Below are positions 1 to 9,264 of a stretch of 9,264 nucleotides of DNA, piece after piece (the stretch's first letter is position 1; each line of letters starts with the position of its first letter). The DNA lies in IMG/VR virus record IMGVR_UViG_2548876863_000017. One strand, 5' to 3'. Under the pieces are notes generated by a model. The model saw only the letters and a program-made list of their open reading frames with translations, was not told where the DNA came from and did no database searches. The DNA is from a virus. Taxonomy: Duplodnaviria > Heunggongvirae > Uroviricota > Caudoviricetes. Both the position numbers and the translations under genes were made by a program.

Positions 1-2
1 GT

Positions 3-917
3 CATCGGGCATTATCTGAACATAAAACACTATCAATAAGTTGGAGTCATTACCGATTTAATATTAATAATTCCTCAGTTACTTATATTGATATTGACTC
101 CAATGATACAGACCATATTACTATTGGTATCGACAACCAAGAACCAATAGAATTACCTGCGAACTATAAAGACAAAGAACTCGTCCGTACTATCATTAAT
201 GACAACATAGTTGAGAAGACTCATGATATCAATAACAAGGAAATGATCTTCAGCGCATTAAAAGAAATATATGATGGAGATCCTGGTTTTATCTTCGATA
301 AGATATCACACAAACTCAGACATACGGTAACGGAATTTGATGAGAGCGGGAAAAGCGAACCAACGGACTTATTTACCTGGTACGGTAAAGATAAAAAAGG
401 CGACTCTCTCGCTATTGTAATTAAAAATAAAAACGGAAATGATTACTTATCTCTCGGTTACTACGATCAGGACGACTACCACATTCAAAGAGGAATTCGT
501 ATTAATGGTGATAGTCTCACCCAATATTGTAGTGAAAACGCCAGGAGTGCTTCAGCGTGGTTTGAAAGCAGTAAAGCTATCATGGCAGAATCATTTGCAA
601 CAGGTTCCGATCATCAGGTTATAAACGAGCTCAACGGGGAAAGACTGAGAGAACCTAACGAAGTTTTTAAACGTTTAGGTCGAGCAATAAGATATAATTT
701 TCAAGTGGACGATGCAAAATTTAGACGCGATAATGTAAAAGAAATAATTTCTAATTTATTCGCTAACAAAGTTGACGTTGACCATCCTGAAAATAAATAC
801 AAAGACTTTAAGGATCTCGAAGATAACGTTGAAAAAAGACTTCAAAATCGCCAGGCGAAATATCAAAATGAAATTAATCAACTATCTGCGCCAGGTGTTA
901 ATTTTGATGATATTTAA
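3..917 (+). CDS. yfdF: 3' portion of an AT-rich hypothetical protein gene whose 5' end lies left of the window; probable yfdF homolog by synteny
   Basis: Frame 3 is open from position 3 to the TAA at 915-917. Hand translation of 3-242 gives HRALSEHKTLSISWSHYRFNINNSSVTYIDIDSNDTDHITIGIDNQEPIELPANYKDKELVRTIINDNIVEKTHDINNKEMIF with no stop, so the 224-aa track ORF (243..917) is only the tail of a longer CDS. No domain recognised. The symbol is inferred from the K-12 gene order fadL-yfdF-mlaA-yfdC-argW as I remember it, not from recognising the protein. Confidence 0.55.
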   Translation, partial: HRALSEHKTLSISWSHYRFNINNSSVTYIDIDSNDTDHITIGIDNQEPIELPANYKDKELVRTIINDNIVEKTHDINNKEMIFSALKEIYDGDPGFIFDKISHKLRHTVTEFDESGKSEPTDLFTWYGKDKKGDSLAIVIKNKNGNDYLSLGYYDQDDYHIQRGIRINGDSLTQYCSENARSASAWFESSKAIMAESFATGSDHQVINELNGERLREPNEVFKRLGRAIRYNFQVDDAKFRRDNVKEIISNLFANKVDVDHPENKYKDFKDLEDNVEKRLQNRQAKYQNEINQLSAPGVNFDDI

Positions 918-1057
918 AATTATTTTTCCAGTTTTTTGATTTTTCAACGCCTGAATATCGGAAATAGTCAGTGACGAACATCAGTATTTTTACATCATTA
1001 CGTCCGGGTCATTGTCGGTTTATCTCCTTTTACTTGTGGTAATTGAGGGATAACAAC

Positions 1058-1090
1058 AAAAAAGGTGAGTTTTGCGACTCACCTTTTTTA
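1058..1090. terminator. Bidirectional rho-independent terminator between convergent yfdF-like and mlaA genes
   Basis: Seen in sequence: A-run (1058-1063), stem GGTGAGT (1064-1070), loop TTTGCG (1071-1076), stem ACTCACC (1077-1083), T-run TTTTTTA (1084-1090). This gives a perfect 7-bp GC-containing stem with A-tract on one side and U-tract on the other, located 9 nt beyond the mlaA stop (1099-1101 on the - strand) and about 140 nt beyond the yfdF-like stop. Confidence 0.65.
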
Positions 1091-1098
1091 TTTGTTTC

Positions 1099-1854
1099 TT
1101 ATTCAGAATCAATATCTTTTAAATCATCCTGAATCGCTTGTGCGTTCGGATTTTCCTGCGGTTTGAGTTCGCCGCCATTAGCGATGAAATCATGACGCTG
1201 GAAGTACGCTTCGCGCACCATAATATAAGGATCGGACGACTGACGCAGCAGACCATCGGAATCCAACAACTGCGCACGAGTTTCTATCCCTTCAAGCGTC
1301 CATTTACCCACAGACATCGGCCAGGTCAGCCAGGAAAGAACCGGGTAAAGACCATCCGCCATATCACCACCGTCATCACGCAGCGTGAAGCTACCGTAGA
1401 ACGGTAACTGAACGTAAGGCCCATAACCCACGCCATAATGACCAAGCGTACTACCGAAGCGGTGAGGTTCAGTCCGTTGCAGTTTCGGGTTCGCCATCCC
1501 TGCAACATCAATAAAACCGCCCATCCCCAAAATGGTGTTCAGGAAAAAGCGGGTAAAGTGGACCATCCCCTGATAAGGGTCGCCCTGCAAGAAGTAGTTA
1601 ACCATCACCGCAGGTTCTTCAAGGTTGCCAGTAAAGTTGCTCAAACCGTTACGCGCCGGTTGCGGAACATAATCACGCCAGGCGACAGCGACCGGTCGAA
1701 CAATATACGGGTCTAATACATTGAAGTTGAAGTTGTACATGGTGCGGTTGAACCCTTCTAACGGGTCAGAACGCCCTTGCTGATCTGTACCGGAACTCGC
1801 ACACCCCACCAGAAGCGTAGTTCCCAGAGCAAGCGCCGACAGGCGAAGCTTCAT
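1099..1854 (-). CDS. mlaA: MlaA (VacJ), outer-membrane lipoprotein of the Mla phospholipid-transport (lipid asymmetry) pathway
   Basis: 251-aa product with N-terminal lipoprotein signal (MKLRLSALALGTTLLVGC, lipobox LVGC); I recognise the translation as the MlaA/VacJ family. Length equals E. coli MlaA (251 aa). GGAG Shine-Dalgarno lies 7-8 nt upstream of the ATG. Convergent with the yfdF-like ORF and divergent from yfdC, as in E. coli K-12. Confidence 0.9.
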   Translation of the reverse strand: MKLRLSALALGTTLLVGCASSGTDQQGRSDPLEGFNRTMYNFNFNVLDPYIVRPVAVAWRDYVPQPARNGLSNFTGNLEEPAVMVNYFLQGDPYQGMVHFTRFFLNTILGMGGFIDVAGMANPKLQRTEPHRFGSTLGHYGVGYGPYVQLPFYGSFTLRDDGGDMADGLYPVLSWLTWPMSVGKWTLEGIETRAQLLDSDGLLRQSSDPYIMVREAYFQRHDFIANGGELKPQENPNAQAIQDDLKDIDSE

Positions 1855-2147
1855 AAATGTCTCCCTGTTTTTTTATGGCTTATGCAGTTTGCCATCCATG
1901 ACGGAACGATACCGTATCCGCCTGTTTAGGTGTGGGCGATTGTAACAGCACGTCAACTGATGTCCAGACGCCCTGATTTGCTGATTTGATCATAGCCTGG
2001 TAATCGCCGCCCTGTAGGCTACTTGATTCTATAGAAACAGAAAAAGGCAAACGCAGCCTTTTCTACATTTTCAGAGTAACTCCCGTCAGTTGCGAGCAAA
2101 AAAGCCGCTACGCTTTAGCTATACGTGCTAATTCAAGAGAAGAGACC

Positions 2148-3080
2148 ATGGACAACGACAAAATTGATCAACACAGCGACGAAATTGAAGTTGAGAGCGA
2201 AGAAAAAGAGCGCGGCAAAAAAATAGAAATAGATGAAGACCGACTCCCCTCCCGGGCGATGGCAATTCATGAGCATATCCGCCAGGATGGTGAAAAAGAG
2301 CTGGAACGCGACGCAGTGGCGCTACTGTGGTCAGCCATTGCGGCGGGTCTGTCGATGGGCGCTTCGTTACTGGCAAAAGGGATATTTCAAGTCGAACTGG
2401 AAGGTGTGCCGGGCAGCTTCTTGCTGGAGAATCTCGGTTATACCTTTGGTTTTATTATCGTCATTATGGCCCGCCAGCAATTATTTACCGAAAATACCGT
2501 GACTGCGGTACTACCCGTCATGCAAAAACCGACAATGAGCAACGTCGGCTTACTTATACGGTTATGGGGCGTCGTGCTGCTGGGTAATATTCTCGGGACA
2601 GGTATTGCGGCGTGGGCATTTGAATATATGCCTATCTTCAATGAAGAAACTCGCGATGCATTTGTCAAAATCGGCATGGATGTGATGAAGAACACCCCCA
2701 GCGAGATGTTTGCCAACGCGATCATTTCCGGCTGGCTGATCGCCACTATGGTTTGGATGTTTCCTGCAGCGGGTGCGGCAAAGATTGTGGTGATTATATT
2801 GATGACCTGGCTTATTGCCCTGGGTGACACCACCCATATCGTGGTCGGTTCTGTTGAAATCCTCTATCTGGTGTTTAACGGTACGCTGCACTGGAGCGAT
2901 TTCATCTGGCCCTTCGCACTACCTACTTTAGCGGGGAACATCTGCGGCGGCACCTTTATCTTCGCGTTAATGAGTCATGCACAGATTCGTAACGACATGA
3001 GCAATAAGCGTAAAGCAGAAGCACGCCAAAAAGCAGAACGTGCGGAAAACATTAAGAAAAATTATAAAAACCCGGCATAA
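2148..3080 (+). CDS. yfdC: YfdC, inner-membrane protein of the formate/nitrite transporter (FNT) family
   Basis: 310-aa product with an acidic, charged N-terminal extension followed by multiple hydrophobic helices, consistent with an FNT-type channel. Length and position (between mlaA and argW) match E. coli yfdC as I recall it. Confidence 0.8.
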   Translation: MDNDKIDQHSDEIEVESEEKERGKKIEIDEDRLPSRAMAIHEHIRQDGEKELERDAVALLWSAIAAGLSMGASLLAKGIFQVELEGVPGSFLLENLGYTFGFIIVIMARQQLFTENTVTAVLPVMQKPTMSNVGLLIRLWGVVLLGNILGTGIAAWAFEYMPIFNEETRDAFVKIGMDVMKNTPSEMFANAIISGWLIATMVWMFPAAGAAKIVVIILMTWLIALGDTTHIVVGSVEILYLVFNGTLHWSDFIWPFALPTLAGNICGGTFIFALMSHAQIRNDMSNKRKAEARQKAERAENIKKNYKNPA

Positions 3081-3138
3081 ATGGCGAGGGTTTAAGCAAT
3101 CGAGCGGCAGCGTACTTACCCCGCACTCCATTAGCGGG

Positions 3139-3144
3139 TATACT
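3139..3144 (+). promoter_or_regulatory. Candidate -10 element (TATACT) of the argW promoter
   Basis: TATACT hexamer sits 11 nt upstream of the first base of the mature tRNA, followed by a GC-rich discriminator (CATGCCGC). No convincing -35 found (CTTACC at 3115-3120 is a poor match). Sequence-only inference. Confidence 0.3.
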
Positions 3145-3155
3145 CATGCCGCATT

Positions 3156-3230
3156 GTCCTCTTAGTTAAATGGATATAACGAGCCCCTCCTAAGGGCTAA
3201 TTGCAGGTTCGATTCCTGCAGGGGACACCA
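3156..3230 (+). tRNA. argW: tRNA-Arg, anticodon CCU (argW); probable prophage attachment site
   Basis: I folded it by hand. Acceptor stem GUCCUCU pairs with AGGGGAC (one G-U). Anticodon stem AGCCC/GGGCU has loop CUCCUAA, giving anticodon CCU. T-arm is UGCAG-GUUCGAUUC-CUGCA with the GTTCGA motif. Discriminator A and encoded CCA at 3228-3230. Total 75 nt. A P4-type integrase gene follows immediately. Confidence 0.92.
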
Positions 3231-3325
3231 TTTATCAGTTCGCTCCCATCCGTACCAGTCCGCAAAATCCCCTGAATATCAAGCCTTCCGTAGATTCACG
3301 GTTCGTCATGGTTCGCGTCAGATCG

Positions 3326-3355
3326 TTGACAGCCGCACACCATGACGGGTAAAAA
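3326..3355 (+). promoter_or_regulatory. Candidate integrase promoter: consensus -35 TTGACA with a weak -10 (TAAAAA)
   Basis: Perfect TTGACA at 3326-3331. An 18-bp spacer leads to TAAAAA at 3350-3355 (4/6 match to TATAAT), 37 nt upstream of the int ATG. The -35 is flanked by an 8-bp inverted repeat: CGTCATGG at 3304-3311 and CCATGACG at 3340-3347. Sequence-only; unvalidated. Confidence 0.3.
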
Positions 3356-3391
3356 GTGGATAAAATAATTTTACCCACCGGATTTTTACCC

Positions 3392-4546
3392 ATGCTCACC
3401 GTTAAGCAGATTGAAGCAGCAAAGCCGAAAGAAAAACCATACCGCCTTCTCGATGGTAATGGCCTGTACCTTTATGTCCCTGTATCCGGGAAAAAGGTAT
3501 GGCAGCTTCGCTATAAGATTGACGGTAAGGAGAAAATCCTGACCGTCGGAAAATACCCGCTTATGACTTTGCAGGAGGCAAGGGATAAGGCATGGACCGC
3601 GAGGAAAGACATCTCGGTTGGCATCGATCCGGTAAAGGCGAAAAAGGCTTCGTCTAACAACAATTCCTTTAGTGCGATTTACAAGGAATGGTACGAGCAC
3701 AAGAAGCAAGTATGGTCAGTAGGGTATGCGACTGAACTTGCAAAAATGTTTGATGACGACATTTTACCTATCATCGGCGGCCTTGAAATTCAGGATATTG
3801 AGCCAATGCAACTGCTGGAAGTAATCCGCAGATTTGAAGATCGCGGTGCAATGGAACGAGCCAATAAAGCCCGCAGAAGATGCGGCGAGGTTTTCCGTTA
3901 CGCTATTGTCACCGGAAGGGCTAAATATAACCCGGCACCTGACCTTGCTGACGCCATGAAGGGATACCGCAAGAAAAACTTCCCGTTTCTTCCTGCAGAC
4001 CAGATCCCGGCATTTAACAAAGCACTGGCAACATTTTCAGGAAGTATCGTATCGCTCATTGCGACCAAAGTTTTACGCTACACAGCCCTAAGAACGAAAG
4101 AGCTTCGTTCCATGCTATGGAAGAACGTCGATTTTGAAAACAGGATTATCACCATCGACGCCAGTGTGATGAAGGGTCGCAAAATTCATGTGGCTCCTAT
4201 GTCAGACCAGGTGGTTGAACTTCTCACTACGCTAAGCTCTATCACCAAACCAGTATCAGAGTTTGTTTTTGCCGGGCGCAACGATAAGAAAAAGCCAATC
4301 TGCGAGAACGCGGTATTACTTGTGATCAAACAAATCGGCTATGAAGGTCTGGAAAGCGGTCACGGATTCAGGCATGAATTCAGCACGATTATGAACGAGC
4401 ACGAATGGCCTGCTGATGCTATTGAAGTGCAACTGGCACATGCCAACGGCGGATCTGTGCGCGGGATTTACAACCATGCTCAGTATCTCGATAAGCGCAG
4501 AGAAATGATGCAGTGGTGGGCTGATTGGCTAGATTGGAAAATATGA
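3392..4546 (+). CDS. intS: P4-type tyrosine integrase (site-specific recombinase), IntS-like
   Basis: N-terminus MLTVKQIEAAKPKEKPYRLLDGNGLYLYV... is the typical P4-family arm-binding domain. The C-terminal catalytic domain has an HxxR motif (HGFRHEF) and a candidate catalytic Tyr (GIYNHAQYLDK). It lies immediately 3' of a tRNA. The track ORF starts 12 codons earlier (ATG 3356), but ATG 3392 gives the canonical family N-terminus and a 384-aa product. The intS symbol is by analogy to the K-12 argW-adjacent integrase. Confidence 0.88.
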   Translation: MLTVKQIEAAKPKEKPYRLLDGNGLYLYVPVSGKKVWQLRYKIDGKEKILTVGKYPLMTLQEARDKAWTARKDISVGIDPVKAKKASSNNNSFSAIYKEWYEHKKQVWSVGYATELAKMFDDDILPIIGGLEIQDIEPMQLLEVIRRFEDRGAMERANKARRRCGEVFRYAIVTGRAKYNPAPDLADAMKGYRKKNFPFLPADQIPAFNKALATFSGSIVSLIATKVLRYTALRTKELRSMLWKNVDFENRIITIDASVMKGRKIHVAPMSDQVVELLTTLSSITKPVSEFVFAGRNDKKKPICENAVLLVIKQIGYEGLESGHGFRHEFSTIMNEHEWPADAIEVQLAHANGGSVRGIYNHAQYLDKRREMMQWWADWLDWKI

Positions 4547-4607
4547 TAACTATGATATTATCATTATTTACAACAATAAAGTTAACATACACTTTTGAGA
4601 CTTAGAT

Positions 4608-5699
4608 GTGATTAAAAAAAACCTAGAATCCATACAATTTCTTAGAGCGGTGGCAGTTTTGTTGGTGGTTCTATTCCACTACCGTTTTGATGCAGAATCT
4701 TTGATAGCAAACTCAAAGATAATTTTCTTCAATGGATCTATTGGGGTCGACCTTTTCTTTGTTATAAGTGGATTCATAATTTACTATGTTACCGACAACA
4801 ACAAAAAAGGCATTTTCGAGTCAGCATCGTTTATATTAAAGCGAGTAATTAGGGTTTTACCGCCTTATCTTTTAATATCATTTATTTTTGTTTATTTCGG
4901 TAATAAAGATTATATAAAGTTAATACAGTCAATCTCATTCATCCCATTATCTAATAAAGAACCTCCTTTTTATGGATACCCCTCTCTTGTTGTTGGATGG
5001 TCGCTTAACTATGAGATTTACTTCTACATCCTTGCGGCCATTGGGATAATGTTTTTTGGAAAGTGCAAATGGCTTGTTATATCAACATCAATAGTGTCAT
5101 TGATAATGGTGCTGGCATTAATAAACGGAAACATATCATTATCTACCAGTGTGGACTACAACATTAATAGTAGTTACCTTTCGATGGCAACAAATAGTAT
5201 TATTTTAGATTTCACTTTAGGTGTTGCGTGTGGATACTTAGCTAAGCGTGACAATAAGGTTAGCAATACAGCTGTAATAACACTATCTATAGTTTCTATT
5301 GCTATATTTATTATGTGTCTAATGGGTATTTTTAGGTCTGAGCATGGCCCTATGTTTTGGGGGTTGTCGTCATTCTTTTTGGTGCTATCATTTATTGAGC
5401 TAGAAAAGAGAAGCATTTTATATTTTCCTAAGATTCTTATAGTAATTGGCAACATGTCATTTTCAATATATTTAGTTCACATTCCGTGTCTTGTGCTATG
5501 TTATTATTTATTCAATAACATACATCCACTTTTCAACCTAGATAATAAACCTTTACTTATATTTCTATCATCATTAATAGCAACATGCATTTCTTCGTTT
5601 TTTTATTATCATTTAGTAGAGCGATATCTTTGTGAATATTTGAGAAAGTCCATTTTCTCAGCATTATTTATATTTAAAATTCATTCAAGATCTAATTGA
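4608..5699 (+). CDS. Acyltransferase-3 (AT3) family integral membrane protein; candidate phage-encoded O-antigen O-acetyltransferase (Oac/OafA-like) for lysogenic conversion
   Basis: 363-aa polytopic hydrophobic protein. The N-terminal helix carries the AT3 signature spacing of a conserved Arg and His ([14 protein letters not shown]: R13, 10 residues, H24). Position between int and tailspike is where Sf6 carries oac and P22 carries gtrABC (from memory). Start is GTG at 4608: an in-frame TGA sits at 4596-4598 and no in-frame ATG precedes the conserved motif. Only a weak SD (GAGA). Very AT-rich. Substrate and function are inferred. Confidence 0.78.
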
Positions 5700-7640
5700 T
5701 ATATACTTCTTAGCTGTCGACATCCATGGATAGGTTGTCGACGGAAGGTTTTTAAAATGAATTATTGTTTCTCCATTTGTTCCTATTGTCACATATGAGT
5801 TATCTGCACCAAAAGAAATTGTATTAAATCTTGTCATCCTTCCTTGGTACAAAACAGAATTAGAACCATCTGTTGATATTGCTCTAAATTCATATGTACA
5901 ATCACCGTCAAAATATATAGGAGTTATCGCAAATACCTCTTCTCCAGTGTAAGTCAGAGAGTCAATGCGATAGTTGCAGCAGTACTTAACATTATCATCA
6001 ATTGGGATTTCAGCAGTAGGATAAACAAATGGTAGCTGTGTTTTTAAGTTAATTAAGACTGAATTCTTGAATGTATCAGTATTAACAAGTTTTATATTTG
6101 GAAGAGATGTTCCATATTCTGAAACAGATATTTCAGCATTAACAAGGCCATACATGACAACCATGTCATGTATGTTAAACATCCATCCACCATCACCTAT
6201 CTTTAGAAGATGTGATTTAAAGTCGCCATCTGTTTTTCCCAATACTGTTTTAACATTCTCACAGTATATATTATTGAGATTTGTACTAAAGTTCTCACCA
6301 TTAATAGTGATCGCTCTATTCATTTGCTCGAAGGCGCTTCCAGAGAATGTTACATTCTGTGTATTATTTTGAGGGTAAGATGAATTGAATGGTTCAGAAA
6401 GTAAAACACCTAGATCCCTACCTGATATTTTACCTTTGAATGCAACGTTATTTGTTGCACGACCAAGGAATACAGGATACAAGCCTTTAACAGTATCATG
6501 GTCATCAATTATGCAGACATCATATTCAGGGTAAAATCCCTGAACTGAACTTATGGCGATTGCACACCTATAAAATGACACGTCTTTTATATAACACCCT
6601 AACGTAAAGCATCTAAGATTGAAGCAATTTGAAATACCAATGAATTGTATTCCTTCAAATGAAGAGTTTCTCACAATTGCATTGGCGATACAATCCTGAT
6701 CAGAAAGTCCTGATGTATTTGATGTGATCTGGCCTGATAAAAAATACCCTGTTTCAAAAAGAGGAGTAGTTGTAGTGTCAAGATCGGAAACAATTGTTGT
6801 CTGATCACCAACGAAAGCAGTATTAGAAGAAAATATAGTTTTCTGATTTAATGTATAAACGTAATTACCCAATCCTATTTTTCTTCGCTGACCATAGCTA
6901 CCTAACCCTGCGGCTATTGCTGCTTTCTGAAATGCAGGAGAAGAATCGAAATCCGTCTTTTGCTTCGCTGGATATGCGCCAAACCTATCAACATGCAAAG
7001 GAAGTGTCGTAACCCATTTGCTACCAAGCGAATCAATAAACCATGAACCACCATCTGTTTGACCTGGAATTCCAGTTTCACCAGTTCTTCGCATGATATT
7101 TGTTGCATGTGCAGTATTAAATGCGCCTACAGAATCAGCGTGATACTTTACAATAGTCATTGTTTTAATTGCAGATGGAAATGAAGAGGATAATGCAGTT
7201 TCAAAATCTGGAACATACATTGAAGATGCCAAATCATTCATATTGGCATTACCATAGCCAACCAAATAGGCACCATAACTGCCGGCAAGATCTTGCCTTA
7301 ATTGGTCAGGGTCATACTTCAACACATTAGGAAAATAGAACTGCTTCGCACCATATGCATCATAAACAGCCATAGAATGGCCTTGCACGGTAACGAATTT
7401 GGCAATCTGTCCGTTATATACCGGGTAACCAGCAGCGTTAATGATGATTGGTTGCGATACAGGAACATGAGAGCCGTCTTCGTTCTCCACATAAACCTGA
7501 ATCTGGTTTTCAGGATTTACCGGGTCAGTGTCAATTTTACCGATATAAATTTTGCCATTGGCAACCGCTTTAAAAGAACGAGCCATAGTGAAGAGTTGCG
7601 AAGGCATGCTTACCACAACATTTGCGGTGATATCTGACAT
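5685..7640 (-). CDS. Tailspike protein: P22-family N-terminal head-binding domain fused to an unrecognised, probably beta-helical, receptor-binding/depolymerase C-terminal domain
   Basis: From the ATG at 7640 (GGAG SD 7-8 nt upstream) the product begins [113 protein letters not shown]. From memory this matches the conserved N-terminal domain of P22 gp9 and the Sf6/HK620 tailspikes. The remaining roughly 540 residues do not resemble the P22 gp9 body as I remember it. The track ORF starts 16 codons upstream (ATG 7688), which I consider an over-extension. The 3' end overlaps the acyltransferase 3' end by 15 bp. Confidence 0.85.
5714..5753 (+). terminator. Possible weak intrinsic terminator for the acyltransferase transcript, embedded in the 3' coding end of the convergent tailspike gene
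   Basis: CTGTCGAC (5714-5721) can pair with GTCGACGG (5737-5744) as an 8-bp stem with one G-U. The 15-nt loop contains the perfect palindrome ATCCATGGAT. A TTTTT run at 5749-5753 follows, but 4 nt after the stem. Starts 15 nt after the acyltransferase stop. Geometry is imperfect for a canonical terminator. Confidence 0.25.
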
Positions 7641-7761
7641 TTCATTGCTCCAGACGAATGATATGATGCAACCATGATGTGATTGCATACCGAAATGGTA
7701 CTATTGAGTATTTATCCAGTAGGTTACGATGCCATTCCACCCAACTGGTGAGGCATCAAGG
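7641..7761. promoter_or_regulatory. Divergent regulatory region between the tailspike and mnt-like genes; candidate promoters and operator
   Basis: 121-bp AT-rich spacer between divergent start codons. Inverted repeat ATGCAA (7666-7671) / TTGCAT (7683-7688) with an 11-bp spacer. Repeated ATGAT(G) motifs at 7658-7667 and 7674-7679. A CACC-N5-GGTG dyad at 7738-7750 loosely resembles the CCAC/GTGG half-sites of the P22 mnt operator as I recall it. No promoter hexamers could be assigned confidently. Confidence 0.4.
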
Positions 7762-8028
7762 ATGTACAGCAAATACGACGAGGCGCAGTTTCACTTGAGA
7801 CTTCCGCATGAACTCCACGCGAAAATTAAGCAGCGTGCGAAGATGAATAACAGATCGCTGAACTCAGAGATAATTGCAGCGATTGAAGAATCATTGGATA
7901 AACAAAGCTCTGCATCAGTTTACATTGACGATGCAGAGCGTATGGCAGAACAACAATCTGATATGGTTAAGAAAATTGTCTTTGATACGCTTAAGACCAT
8001 GTATAGCAATAATAAAAAGGAAACATAG
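7762..8028 (+). CDS. mnt: Mnt-like ribbon-helix-helix (Arc/MetJ superfamily) repressor
   Basis: 88-aa product MYSKYDEAQFHLRLPHELHAKIKQRAKMNNRSLNSEIIAAIEESL...DDAERMAEQQSDMVKKIVFDTLKTMY. It aligns by eye with P22 Mnt as I remember it, both in the N-terminal RHH DNA-binding part (FNFRMPMEVREKLKFRAEANGRSMNSELLQIVQDAL) and the C-terminal tetramerisation helix (NDAERLADEQSELVKKMVFDTLKDLY). GAGG SD at 7750-7753, 8 nt upstream of ATG 7762. The track ORF starts at ATG 7729, 11 codons upstream; I prefer 7762 from the homology. Confidence 0.82.
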   Translation: MYSKYDEAQFHLRLPHELHAKIKQRAKMNNRSLNSEIIAAIEESLDKQSSASVYIDDAERMAEQQSDMVKKIVFDTLKTMYSNNKKET

Positions 8029-8098
8029 AAATCTAGTTTCCGGCTAAAATGGCATTACCTTCATGATATCCTGTGAAAAACTAAGGAGAGTTAACCAT

Positions 8099-8584
8099 AT
8101 GAAAAAATCACTGTTAATTATCCCGCTTCTGCTGGTTGGATGCGCAAAAGTAAGTGACTATCAAGCAAGTTGCGAACAACGCTATCAAAAGCTTAGCGAT
8201 ATGGCTAATTGCCTTGATGCCAGTGTGAAGAACGACTCACGCATGGCATCAGCACCAACACCTAAGCTGTATGTCCTTGCTGCAAAGATGCTCGGGCAAG
8301 GTGTCGATGAAGGCAAGATAAGTGACGCACAGGCAAGACTTGAGCTTCAGAATCTTTATGTTCAATTACAAAGCCAAGAACAAGCCCAACAAATAGCACA
8401 AAGCCAAGCATTCCAGCAGGCTTTATTGAATTATCAGGCTGTAAACACAATGCAAGCGATCGAGCAAAAAGCGCGCCAGCCTGTTATAACTCAACCTTAC
8501 CCAACACGCGTTGACACATATACAAACTGCAATTCAGGATTTGGAAACACGGTAACATGCAACAGTAGCAGTAATATCAGGTAG
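8099..8584 (+). CDS. Predicted outer-membrane lipoprotein of unknown function, Gln-rich; moron in the slot where P22 carries sieA; candidate superinfection-exclusion or lysogenic-conversion gene
   Basis: Strong SD AAGGAG (8083-8088), then ATG 8099. The product starts MKKSLLIIPLLLVGCAK: a type II signal peptide with lipobox LVGC, and Ala at +2 after the lipidated Cys, which predicts outer-membrane sorting. The mature part has a Gln/Ala-rich probable helical segment (LQSQEQAQQIAQSQAFQQALLNYQ) and a Cys-containing C-terminus. No family recognised. The track ORF (8063) is extended upstream by 12 codons. Confidence 0.75.
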   Translation: MKKSLLIIPLLLVGCAKVSDYQASCEQRYQKLSDMANCLDASVKNDSRMASAPTPKLYVLAAKMLGQGVDEGKISDAQARLELQNLYVQLQSQEQAQQIAQSQAFQQALLNYQAVNTMQAIEQKARQPVITQPYPTRVDTYTNCNSGFGNTVTCNSSSNIR

Positions 8585-8598
8585 TTATATCTTATCTT

Positions 8599-9264
8599 TT
8601 ATTGCTGTTCTGCTGTAATTTGACTTGAAAGTATAGGGCGTATCGCATTTGCAGCATTATTTAGCGCTCTTTCATAAGCTGGCGTTCCAGTTTTAGTGTT
8701 TGCCAGACGTAAGAGAGCATTCCTTGCTGCTTTGGACTCATACAAGCGCATCATTGCACCAAAACCAGCCTCAAGCCCCATTGATACGCCAAGGGTCGCA
8801 GTTGCGCCAATCGTCCTTATCCTGTTGGCTTGCGATTGCCCCGTCTGAGTTACTACATTTGCGGTGTCTGACCTTGCTGTTTGCTGTAGAACTTCATGAA
8901 GAGCATCAAGCTCTTTTATGTGCTTTCCAGAAAAAATAGTGTTGTAAATTTCACCGCCTGACTGAGATTTCAGCTTATTAACTTCAGTGATGAACTTGGC
9001 TGGAGAGTCCCCGGCCTTTTCCGCTATTTTGCTGACGTAAGCTGCACGCATAGCATCTTTCCCCTTATCATCCAGTGCGCTCCAGATTCGTTTCACGTCA
9101 GATGGTTTTCTGCTTAATACAACGGTATTTATAAGTTCAGGACTGGCTTCACTGCTTGCCTTGTTGAGCTTGTTGGCAATGTTTTTATTAAGCACCTTAT
9201 TATAAACGTTGTAAGCGTACAGCGAGGGCCGTATTGACGGGGATGTGTTATTCAGCTGGCAGTG
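8599..9264 (-). CDS. 3' portion of a phage late gene (5' end beyond the right edge); possibly an ejection/injection protein (P22 gp16-like) by synteny
   Basis: I translated the - strand frame from 9264 down to the track start (GTG at 9195) and found no stop (...[33 protein letters not shown]...), so the track ORF start is an artefact of the window edge. Stop is at 8599-8601. Same orientation as the tailspike and convergent with the lipoprotein. The functional call is from position only; I do not recognise the sequence. Confidence 0.5.

What the first reader, a model, noticed from the sequence alone, without database searches (positions are those of the whole stretch)
5685..7640. Mosaic tailspike: conserved P22-type head-binding domain joined to an unrecognised receptor-binding domain
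The first roughly 113 residues match the P22/Sf6/HK620 tailspike N-terminal domain almost motif for motif (from memory). From about residue 114 ([17 protein letters not shown]...) the sequence is unrelated to the P22 gp9 body as I recall it and is Asn/Ser/Thr/Gly-rich, as expected for a beta-helix glycosidase or esterase domain. Domain swapping at exactly this junction is the known route to new O-antigen or capsule specificities in P22-like phages, so this C-terminal domain probably defines a distinct host polysaccharide specificity and possibly an uncharacterised depolymerase.
Basis: partly seen in the sequence, partly recalled or inferred. Interest (0 to 1): 0.7.

Follow-up and report, generated by a model that had tools for sequence, protein, structure and literature searches.

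The report
Mosaic P22-type tailspike, uncharacterised receptor domain
This is an intact phage tailspike gene that joins the standard P22-type virion-attachment domain to a rare, uncharacterised sugar-cutting beta-helix domain; it is an ordinary example of a well-known way phages change host range, and here it sits in a decayed prophage of E. coli.

Summary
Window 5685-7640 (minus strand) encodes a 651-aa protein. Residues 1-113 are a full-length P22-type head-binding domain (PF09008, E 2e-66), 91% identical to Sf6, 75% to P22 and up to 97% to E. coli P22-like phages. From residue 114 there is no sequence match to any Pfam family or solved structure.

The receptor domain is rare. Only 8 clusters among 1.84 billion representative proteins have it full-length, and 1 of 5,426 complete E. 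coli genomes. Its relatives sit on other phage attachment domains.

Three glutamates (E296, E438, E461) are conserved across about 120 distant relatives, so I infer a glycosidase. A convergent, overlapping, low-GC O-acetyltransferase gene points to O-antigen as the receptor.

The only serotyped carrier is O109:H10, which is a weak lead to specificity.

The window's prophage at argW is broken by IS elements, but a 99% identical allele lies in an apparently intact P22-like late region.

Verdict: a new member of a known kind.

The parts
5685..7640 (-). Tailspike CDS, 651 aa plus stop codon
   Evidence: The exact protein is found on at least 24 E. coli contigs.
7648..7651 (-). GGAG ribosome-binding site, 7 nt upstream of the ATG at 7640
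   Evidence: read directly from the sequence.
7302..7640 (-). P22-type head-binding (virion adaptor) domain, aa 1-113
   Evidence: PF09008 E 2e-66, covering 1-113 of 113 model positions. Sf6 and P22 PDB hits. 186 phage records match. GC 43%.
7227..7301 (-). Start of the swapped module: helical neck, aa 114-138 ([17 protein letters not shown]...)
   Evidence: Helices in both AF2 models. Homology to modules with other N-termini begins here. DNA homology to other E. coli tailspike genes ends at codons 116-131.
7002..7226 (-). Small alpha/beta subdomain before the beta-helix, aa 139-213; the most conserved stretch among the close relatives
6051..7001 (-). Right-handed parallel beta-helix body, aa about 214-530, beginning with the cap motif HVDRFGA...DS.PAFQKA
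6753..6755 (-). E296 (FETGY motif), candidate active-site carboxylate
   Evidence: Invariant in the close family; E in 68% of 116 distant relatives.
6327..6329 (-). E438, candidate catalytic carboxylate
   Evidence: Invariant in the close family; E in 85% of distant relatives.
6258..6260 (-). E461, candidate catalytic carboxylate, 23 residues (about one helix rung) after E438
   Evidence: E in 98% of distant relatives; the only invariant column of alignment A2.
5688..6050 (-). C-terminal all-beta domain, aa about 531-651
   Evidence: Strands in the AF2 model, pLDDT 55-76. Conserved only in the 8 close clusters.
4608..5699 (+). Convergent Acyl_transf_3 O-acetyltransferase gene (363 aa); its 3' end overlaps the tailspike 3' end by 15 bp; GC 31.6%
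   Evidence: PF01757 E 2.5e-31. phrog_3333 O-acetyltransferase E 1e-58. Always adjacent to this tailspike. Present in 2 of 5,426 complete genomes.
3356..4546 (+). IntS-type prophage integrase (annotated homologue is 384 aa, so the start is probably at 3392)
3156..3230 (+). tRNA-Arg(CCT) argW, the prophage attachment site
7729..8028 (+). Mnt-like repressor (Arc fold plus Mnt C-terminus), divergent from the tailspike gene
   Evidence: PF03869 and PF11423.
8599..9195 (-). Remnant (last 198 aa) of a P22-type DNA-transfer/ejection protein gene, cut at 9210 by an IS junction
   Evidence: phrog_770 positions 449-664 of 668. Breakpoint at 9210 is shared by all related loci.

Best explanation
The gene encodes the tailspike of a P22-like (Lederbergvirus-type) temperate phage that integrated at argW.

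**How it is built.** Residues 1-113 dock the spike onto the tail of the virion. From residue 114 a horizontally exchanged receptor module follows: a helical neck, a small alpha/beta subdomain, a right-handed beta-helix and a C-terminal beta domain.

**What I infer it does.** The module binds and cleaves the host's surface polysaccharide, most likely the O-antigen, so that the phage can reach the outer membrane. By analogy with other tailspikes it probably works as a trimer. The chemistry is most likely glycoside hydrolysis, using conserved glutamates (E438 and E461 on adjacent rungs, with E296 nearby).

**The neighbouring gene.** The low-GC acyltransferase travels with the module. It probably O-acetylates the same O-antigen in lysogens, blocking superinfection as Oac does for Sf6.

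**State of this copy.** In the window's own genome the prophage is defective, so this copy is an intact relic and not part of a working virion. A near-identical allele sits in an apparently complete late operon elsewhere.

**Shown and inferred.** Shown: domain identity, junction, fold class, rarity, modular distribution, genomic context. Inferred: trimer, catalysis, catalytic residues, O-antigen as substrate, O109 as the specific target.
For: - **Head-binding domain:**
- **Junction:**
- **Modularity:** the same receptor module sits behind PF09008 (P0001, P0004), behind PF18668 (P0003, P0005, P0007), and behind other N-termini (P0002 from Obesumbacterium, P0006), in siphovirus-like and other phage contexts.
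- **Conserved carboxylates:** E296, E438 and E461, together with N308, N397, R408, Y459 and W486, are conserved across about 117 distant relatives. E438 and E461 fall in confident strands 23 residues apart.
- **Acyltransferase linkage:**
- **Composition:** GC is 36% in the receptor module and 31.6% in the acyltransferase, against 43% in the head-binding domain, 41-45% in neighbouring phage genes and 47-52% in chromosomal genes.
- **Phage context:** late-operon position next to mnt, int and argW. An apparently intact late region carries a 99.1% identical allele.
- **Carrier serotype:** the only carrier strain with a known serotype is O109:H10 (PMC12613899), and its O109 wzx/wzy genes were seen directly.
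Against: - No activity, substrate or oligomer data exist.
- Model confidence is moderate (mean pLDDT 63 from a 7-sequence alignment). No coordinates were available, so the spatial clustering of the glutamates was not checked.
- No profile link to any enzyme family with a known mechanism was found beyond the generic N-cap motif, so hydrolase and lyase cannot be told apart.
- The O109 link rests on one strain in which the gene is IS1-disrupted. O-antigen clusters recombine independently of prophages. F829, which keeps the acyltransferase and a 3' remnant of the tailspike, is O49.
- The 64%-identical relative P0004 has no adjacent acyltransferase.
- The window's prophage is defective, so the gene has no demonstrated present-day role there.
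Confidence: 0.75

Rival explanations
1. The receptor module is a polysaccharide lyase (beta-elimination), not a hydrolase, and acts on an acidic O-antigen or capsule.
Against: The strongest conservation is on carboxylates (E461 98%, E438 85%), the usual signature of beta-helix glycosidases. No conserved Lys or Ca-site pattern was evident. There is no sequence link to any PL family.
Confidence: 0.15
2. The target is a capsule (K antigen) or other exopolysaccharide and not the O-antigen.
For: P22-type head-binding domains are also fused to capsule enzymes, for example the CUS-3 K1 endosialidase, whose N-terminus is 96.5% identical to this one. Many of the structural neighbours are capsule depolymerases.
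Against: The tightly linked Oac-like membrane acyltransferase sits in the int-proximal position. That is the arrangement known for O-antigen-converting P22-like phages such as Sf6 (established knowledge). Most E. coli and Salmonella Lederbergvirus spikes correlate with O serogroup (PMC10408124).
Confidence: 0.12
3. The protein is a non-catalytic binder, or in this genome simply a decaying relic with no function.
For: The prophage in the window has lost its ejection-protein genes to IS elements. Truncated versions of the gene (165-500 aa) are common in E. coli and Shigella sonnei. In OkiPb01684 the gene is split by IS1.
Against: The ORF is intact, with a good RBS. Nine full-length alleles with 96.5-99.8% identity exist. 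A 99% identical allele is in an apparently intact late operon. The putative active-site residues are conserved in the window copy.
Confidence: 0.1
4. The receptor module is an esterase or deacetylase, like the SGNH tailspike gp63.1 of phage G7C, and removes O-acetyl groups instead of cutting the chain.
For: The closest isolated-phage relative is in a Gamaleyavirus (phi G17), the genus of G7C. An acetyltransferase is the neighbouring gene.
Against: There is no SGNH or other esterase Pfam hit. The fold is a beta-helix. The conserved motifs are not GDS(L)-type.
Confidence: 0.03

Closest known systems
Sf6 gp14 tailspike (PDB 7sg7, 2vbk) with the Sf6 oac-int gene arrangement
   Same: The head-binding domain is 91% identical over residues 1-113. 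The prophage uses argW with an IntS-type integrase. An Acyl_transf_3 O-acetyltransferase lies between int and the tailspike gene. The body is a beta-helix.
P22 gp9 endorhamnosidase and the HK620 tailspike
   Same: The head-binding domain is 75% identical to P22. The architecture is the same, and the gene sits at the same position at the end of the late operon, after mnt.
Escherichia phage phi G17 (Gamaleyavirus) protein AWY03367.1 / A0A2Z4PZS2
   Same: It is the closest receptor-domain relative in any isolated phage: 31.6% identity over 71% of the module, and Foldseek E 3.6e-22 with TM 0.78 normalised to the target.
   Different: It belongs to an N4-like lytic phage with a different virion adaptor. 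It is annotated as hypothetical, and neither its substrate nor its host serogroup is known. At about 30% identity the specificity is probably different.
CBA120 TSP1 (PDB 4oj5) and Kuttervirus tailspikes such as Mutine gp049
   Different: Sequence identity is 9-15%, and these spikes attach to myovirus baseplates through different anchor domains.

Membership tests
P22-like (Lederbergvirus-type) tailspike | N-terminal head-binding domain (Pfam PF09008) covering the whole model | tested here: met
   E 2e-66, positions 1-113 of 113. PDB hits to Sf6 and P22 N-termini.
P22-like (Lederbergvirus-type) tailspike | Gene at the distal end of a P22-type late operon (after the ejection-protein genes and the immI region), next to the int/att end of the prophage | tested here: met
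   Window: gp16/20 remnant, orf173, mnt, tailspike, acyltransferase, int, argW. An intact relative has coat through gp7, gp20, gp16, mnt, arc, ant, tailspike.
P22-like (Lederbergvirus-type) tailspike | C-terminal body folded as a right-handed parallel beta-helix | tested here: met
P22-like (Lederbergvirus-type) tailspike | Homotrimer with receptor-destroying enzymatic activity | not testable with these tools
   Needs protein expression, SEC/MALS or a structure, and LPS digestion assays.
Characterised receptor-domain families of P22 gp9, Sf6 gp14 and HK620 gp9 | Sequence homology of the body (residues after about 125) to one of these enzymes | tested here: not met
   phmmer and profile searches of the PDB find nothing beyond residue 128. 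The A2 profile reaches Sf6 only at E 0.02 through the cap motif.
Pectate-lyase-like beta-helix superfamily (Pfam PF12708 / clan Pec_lyase-like) | Match to a clan member model at the gathering threshold | tested here: inconclusive
   The window protein itself has no hit. 14 of 28 relatives in A2 match PF12708 (best E 2.7e-13). The A2 profile hits the GH55, GH28 and PfbA cap regions. The fold-level match is strong.
SGNH-esterase tailspikes (G7C gp63.1 type) | SGNH/GDSL hydrolase domain | tested here: not met
   No such Pfam hit. The fold is a beta-helix.
Phage O-antigen O-acetyltransferases (Oac type), for the neighbouring gene 4608-5699 | Integral-membrane Acyl_transf_3 domain encoded at the int-proximal end of a P22-like prophage | tested here: met
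   PF01757 E 2.5e-31 over residues 7-334. phrog_3333 and phrog_6705. Position shown. Activity was not tested.

The most novel reading that the evidence does not exclude
The receptor module and its roughly 120 distant relatives (FETGY...E438...YxE461 signature) form a previously unclassified family of beta-helix glycoside hydrolases. The window enzyme would specifically cleave the E. coli O109 O-antigen, which contains unusual L-RhaN3N derivatives. The linked acyltransferase would be the matching serotype-converting O-acetylase. Together they would give a new enzyme specificity and a reagent for typing or targeting O109 STEC.
Probability: 0.2. Interest if true: 0.5.

Novelty: new member of a known kind. 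Interest (0 to 1): 0.3.

Why it matters
Tailspike receptor domains decide which surface polysaccharide a phage can attack. They are also used as serotyping reagents, as anti-virulence enzymes and as parts for engineered phages or tailocins.

This one is a rare, uncharacterised specificity. It has no solved structure, no Pfam family and no isolated-phage representative above about 32% identity. Expressing it could add a new O-antigen depolymerase, possibly for O109, a serogroup found in eae-positive STEC from cattle.

The conserved E296/E438/E461 signature would also give a testable active site for about 120 related but unannotated phage proteins.

The principle itself, domain swapping at the DPDQ junction, is textbook knowledge for P22-like phages, so the finding extends a catalogue and does not change understanding.

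Tried and rejected
1. **Direct sequence searches for a characterised relative of residues 114-651.** PDB by phmmer and by two profiles, Pfam, NCBIfam and PHROGs gave only a generic cap-motif link and one PHROG of Kuttervirus spikes.
2. **Phage genome collection (tblastn).** No Lederbergvirus carries this module. The best hit is phi G17 at 31.6%. The host serogroup of phi G17 could not be found in the literature library.
3. **Inferring the receptor from carrier serotypes.**
   - OkiPb01684 is O109:H10, but the gene there is IS1-split.
   - F829 (O49) has only a remnant.
   - I tried to tie the 5.2-Mb carrier contigs to O109 by exact look-up of O109 Wzy, Wzx and glycosyltransferase sequences. 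This was inconclusive, because only the longest contig per sequence is reported.
   - A literature search for the carrier assembly accessions found nothing.
4. **Locating the O-antigen cluster of OkiPb01684.** This took several calls because an IS1-mediated rearrangement had moved about 250 kb.
5. **Promoter, terminator and repeat scans around the gene.** Nothing above chance, and no terminator between the convergent genes, which overlap.
7. **Esterase and intramolecular-chaperone (S74) readings.** Considered and rejected for lack of any domain match.
Full report
**Observation**

Window 5685-7640 (minus strand) is a 651-codon ORF ending in a stop. The mechanical ORF list starts it at an upstream ATG (7688). 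The ATG at 7640 has a GGAG 7 nt upstream and gives the MSDITANV start shared by all homologues.

**N-terminal domain**

- Residues 1-113 match Pfam PF09008 (Head_binding) end to end, with E 2e-66 and 221.7 bits against a cut-off of 24.
- phmmer against all PDB chains finds Sf6 gp14 (7sg7, E 8e-65, residues 1-119) and five P22 gp9 N-terminal constructs (E 1e-44 to 1e-50).
- Identity over residues 1-113 is 91.2% to Sf6 and 75.2% to P22.
- In the phage collection 186 records match, up to 97.3% identity (E. coli P22-like phages; CUS-3 at 96.5%).
- The same N-terminal DNA is present in 1,151 of 5,426 complete E. coli genomes.

**Junction**

Three independent lines place it at residue 113/114.

- PDB alignments end at residues 109-128.
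- DNA matches to other E. coli tailspike genes end at nt 348-394 of the gene.
- Relatives of the C-terminal module that carry quite different N-termini begin to align at LRxxLAG, residue about 114.

GC content also changes at the junction. It is 43% in the head-binding part, 36% in the rest of the gene and 31.6% in the next gene, against 41-45% in neighbouring phage genes and 47-52% in flanking chromosomal genes.

**The C-terminal module**

*Sequence searches.* Residues 114-651 have no Pfam, NCBIfam or PDB sequence match. The only family hit is PHROG 13781, 'tail spike protein', at E 1e-11 over about 200 residues.

*Viral structure library.* Against predicted viral structures the best match is the phi G17 protein (E 3.6e-22), followed by Kuttervirus spikes.

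**Rarity and modularity**

- A word-indexed search of 5.8 billion proteins found 6 clusters.
- An exhaustive profile search of 1.84 billion representatives found 8 clusters with the full module and 123 hits in all at E <= 1e-3. The remaining hits match only the helix core.
- The close relatives carry different virion adaptors:
  - PF09008 (P0001, P0004);
  - the TSP1/Gp66 N-terminal domain PF18668 (P0003, P0005, P0007);
  - an unrelated N-terminus in an Obesumbacterium protein (P0002);
  - another unrelated N-terminus in P0006.
- P0005 follows a siphovirus-type tail gene cluster, and P0006 lies in a different phage context.
- In isolated phages the nearest relative is an unannotated protein of the N4-like phage phi G17, at 31.6% identity over 71% of the module.

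This is the horizontal exchange of receptor modules across phage genera described by Pas et al. 2023 (PMC10408124).

**Likely chemistry (inferred)**

I aligned about 117 distant relatives to the family profile. The following are conserved, in full-length numbering:

| Residue | Conservation among distant relatives |
|---|---|
| E296 (FETGY motif) | 68% |
| N308 | 92% |
| D353 | D or N |
| F368-Y369 | 88-92% |
| N397 | 89% |
| R408 | 61% |
| E438 | 85% |
| Y459 | 92% |
| E461 | 98%; the only invariant column of A2 |
| W486 | 60% |

E438 and E461 lie 23 residues apart, each at the third position of a confidently modelled strand. That spacing is about one helix rung, so they probably sit on adjacent rungs of the same face. 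Catalytic carboxylates of GH28 beta-helix glycosidases are arranged in this way (my own knowledge, not tested here).

No profile link to a family of known mechanism was found beyond the generic cap motif VxxFGAxxDxxxDxxxAxQxA shared with PF12708 and GH55. I therefore favour a glycoside hydrolase, at roughly 60% of the probability mass within the depolymerase reading, but lyase chemistry is not excluded. I had no access to model coordinates, so the spatial clustering of these residues is untested.

**Neighbourhood**

The window is E. coli chromosome at argW. The gene order is:

1. yfdF remnant
2. mlaA
3. yfdC
4. tRNA-Arg(CCT)
5. IntS-type integrase
6. Acyl_transf_3 gene (4608-5699, plus strand)
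7. tailspike (minus strand)
8. mnt-like repressor
9. a lipoprotein-like ORF
10. the last 198 codons of a P22-type DNA-transfer protein gene

The acyltransferase converges on the tailspike and overlaps it by 15 bp. It matches PHROG 3333, 'O-acetyltransferase', at E 1e-58. It accompanies this tailspike in every locus examined and is equally rare, present in 2 of 5,426 complete genomes. This is the arrangement known for serotype-converting P22-like phages such as Sf6 (established knowledge), and it is my main argument for O-antigen as the receptor. The 64%-identical relative P0004 lacks such a neighbour: its prophage ends next to torS.

**State of the prophage**

- The exact protein is on at least 24 E. 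coli contigs, always at argW. In those seen, the prophage is cut up by IS3, IS66 or IS1 elements.
- The window is 99.98-99.99% identical over positions 55-9264 to two of them, L008 and L009. All related loci share a breakpoint at window 9210, which implies one ancestral truncation. Window 1-54 is an IS1 end inserted in yfdF.
- The copy in the window is therefore an intact gene in a defective prophage.
- The gene is not confined to that relic. Nine full-length alleles of 96.5-99.8% identity exist. One of them, P0001 at 99.1%, lies in an apparently complete late region: coat, gp4/10/26-like genes, gp7, gp20, gp16, mnt, arc, ant, tailspike, acyltransferase.

**Receptor specificity**

- Among complete genomes the full gene occurs once, split by IS1, in strain OkiPb01684. 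This strain is O109:H10, stx2a, eae-positive (PMC12613899).
- I located its O109 wzy and wzx genes after tracing an IS1-mediated relocation of about 250 kb.
- The O109 antigen contains L-RhaN3N derivatives (title of Perepelov et al. 2011, as cited in PMC7685785).
- F829 keeps only the last 517 nt of the gene plus the acyltransferase, downstream of a second tailspike-acyltransferase pair. It is O49.
- An attempt to link the other carriers to O109 was inconclusive.

O109 is a lead with perhaps 30-35% probability, not a finding.

**Comparison and novelty**

The protein passes the tests for membership of the P22-like tailspike class: head-binding domain, gene position and predicted beta-helix. It fails the test for membership of the characterised receptor-domain families of P22, Sf6 and HK620. 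Its receptor module is an uncharacterised, rare family within the pectate-lyase-like fold.

That makes it a new member of a known kind. The mechanism of diversification is textbook, and the specific enzyme is new and testable. The score of 0.7 overstates the surprise, and I give 0.3.

Noticed in passing
window 1-54 and 243-917: The first 54 bases are an IS1 end (100% identical to the IS1 copy in locus L001) inserted in yfdF. The related loci are colinear with the window only from position 55, so yfdF is disrupted in the window's genome.
   Followed up: partly
window 8599-9264: Only the last 198 codons of a P22-type DNA-transfer/ejection protein gene remain. Homology to all related loci breaks at 9210. 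Positions 9211-9264 match only loci L008 and L009, where an IS66-family element follows. The prophage in the window is therefore defective.
   Followed up: yes
window 8063-8584 (+): A lipoprotein-like ORF (MKKSLLIIPLLLVGC lipobox, counting from the second Met) of unknown function (phrog_6067). It lies between the ejection-gene remnant and mnt. Loci L024 and L025, which carry the 99% identical tailspike allele in an apparently intact late region, have a Rap1a-like (PF18602) gene at about the same place. It may be a moron or superinfection-exclusion gene.
   Followed up: no
window 7729-8028 (+): A Mnt-like repressor (Arc fold plus Mnt C-terminal motif) lies divergent from the tailspike gene, with no arc or ant genes between them. 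Loci L024 and L025 carry mnt-arc-ant.
   Followed up: partly
L002 (E. coli F829, NZ_OY754443.1) 1581-8810: Nested remnants of two tailspike-acyltransferase modules lie at argW. First comes an IS3-cut head-binding fragment with a different 391-aa receptor part and a different Acyl_transf_3 gene. Then come the last 517 nt of the window's tailspike, its acyltransferase and intS. This looks like a record of serial module replacement. F829 is O49.
   Followed up: partly
NZ_AP042519.1 (OkiPb01684) 1.20-1.33 Mb and 2.658-2.661 Mb (L015, L018, L022): About 250 kb of chromosome (fliA to rihB in K-12 terms, including fliC, the his operon, and the O109 rfb and colanic acid clusters) is missing from its usual place. 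A single IS1 sits at the junction, and the segment lies inverted near 1.2-1.33 Mb.
   Followed up: partly
protein clusters P0127, P0131, P0132, P0136, P0138, P0128: Truncated versions of the receptor module (165-500 aa, 96.7-99.4% identical) are annotated as hypothetical proteins on dozens of E. coli and some Shigella sonnei contigs. Remnants of this module are therefore more widespread than the intact gene.
   Followed up: no
L005 9945-12443: The 64%-identical head-binding relative P0004 sits at the end of a P22-like prophage directly next to the host torS gene. It overlaps torS convergently by 12 bp and has no acyltransferase, so the prophage uses a different integration site and the module is not always linked to an acetylase.
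   Followed up: partly
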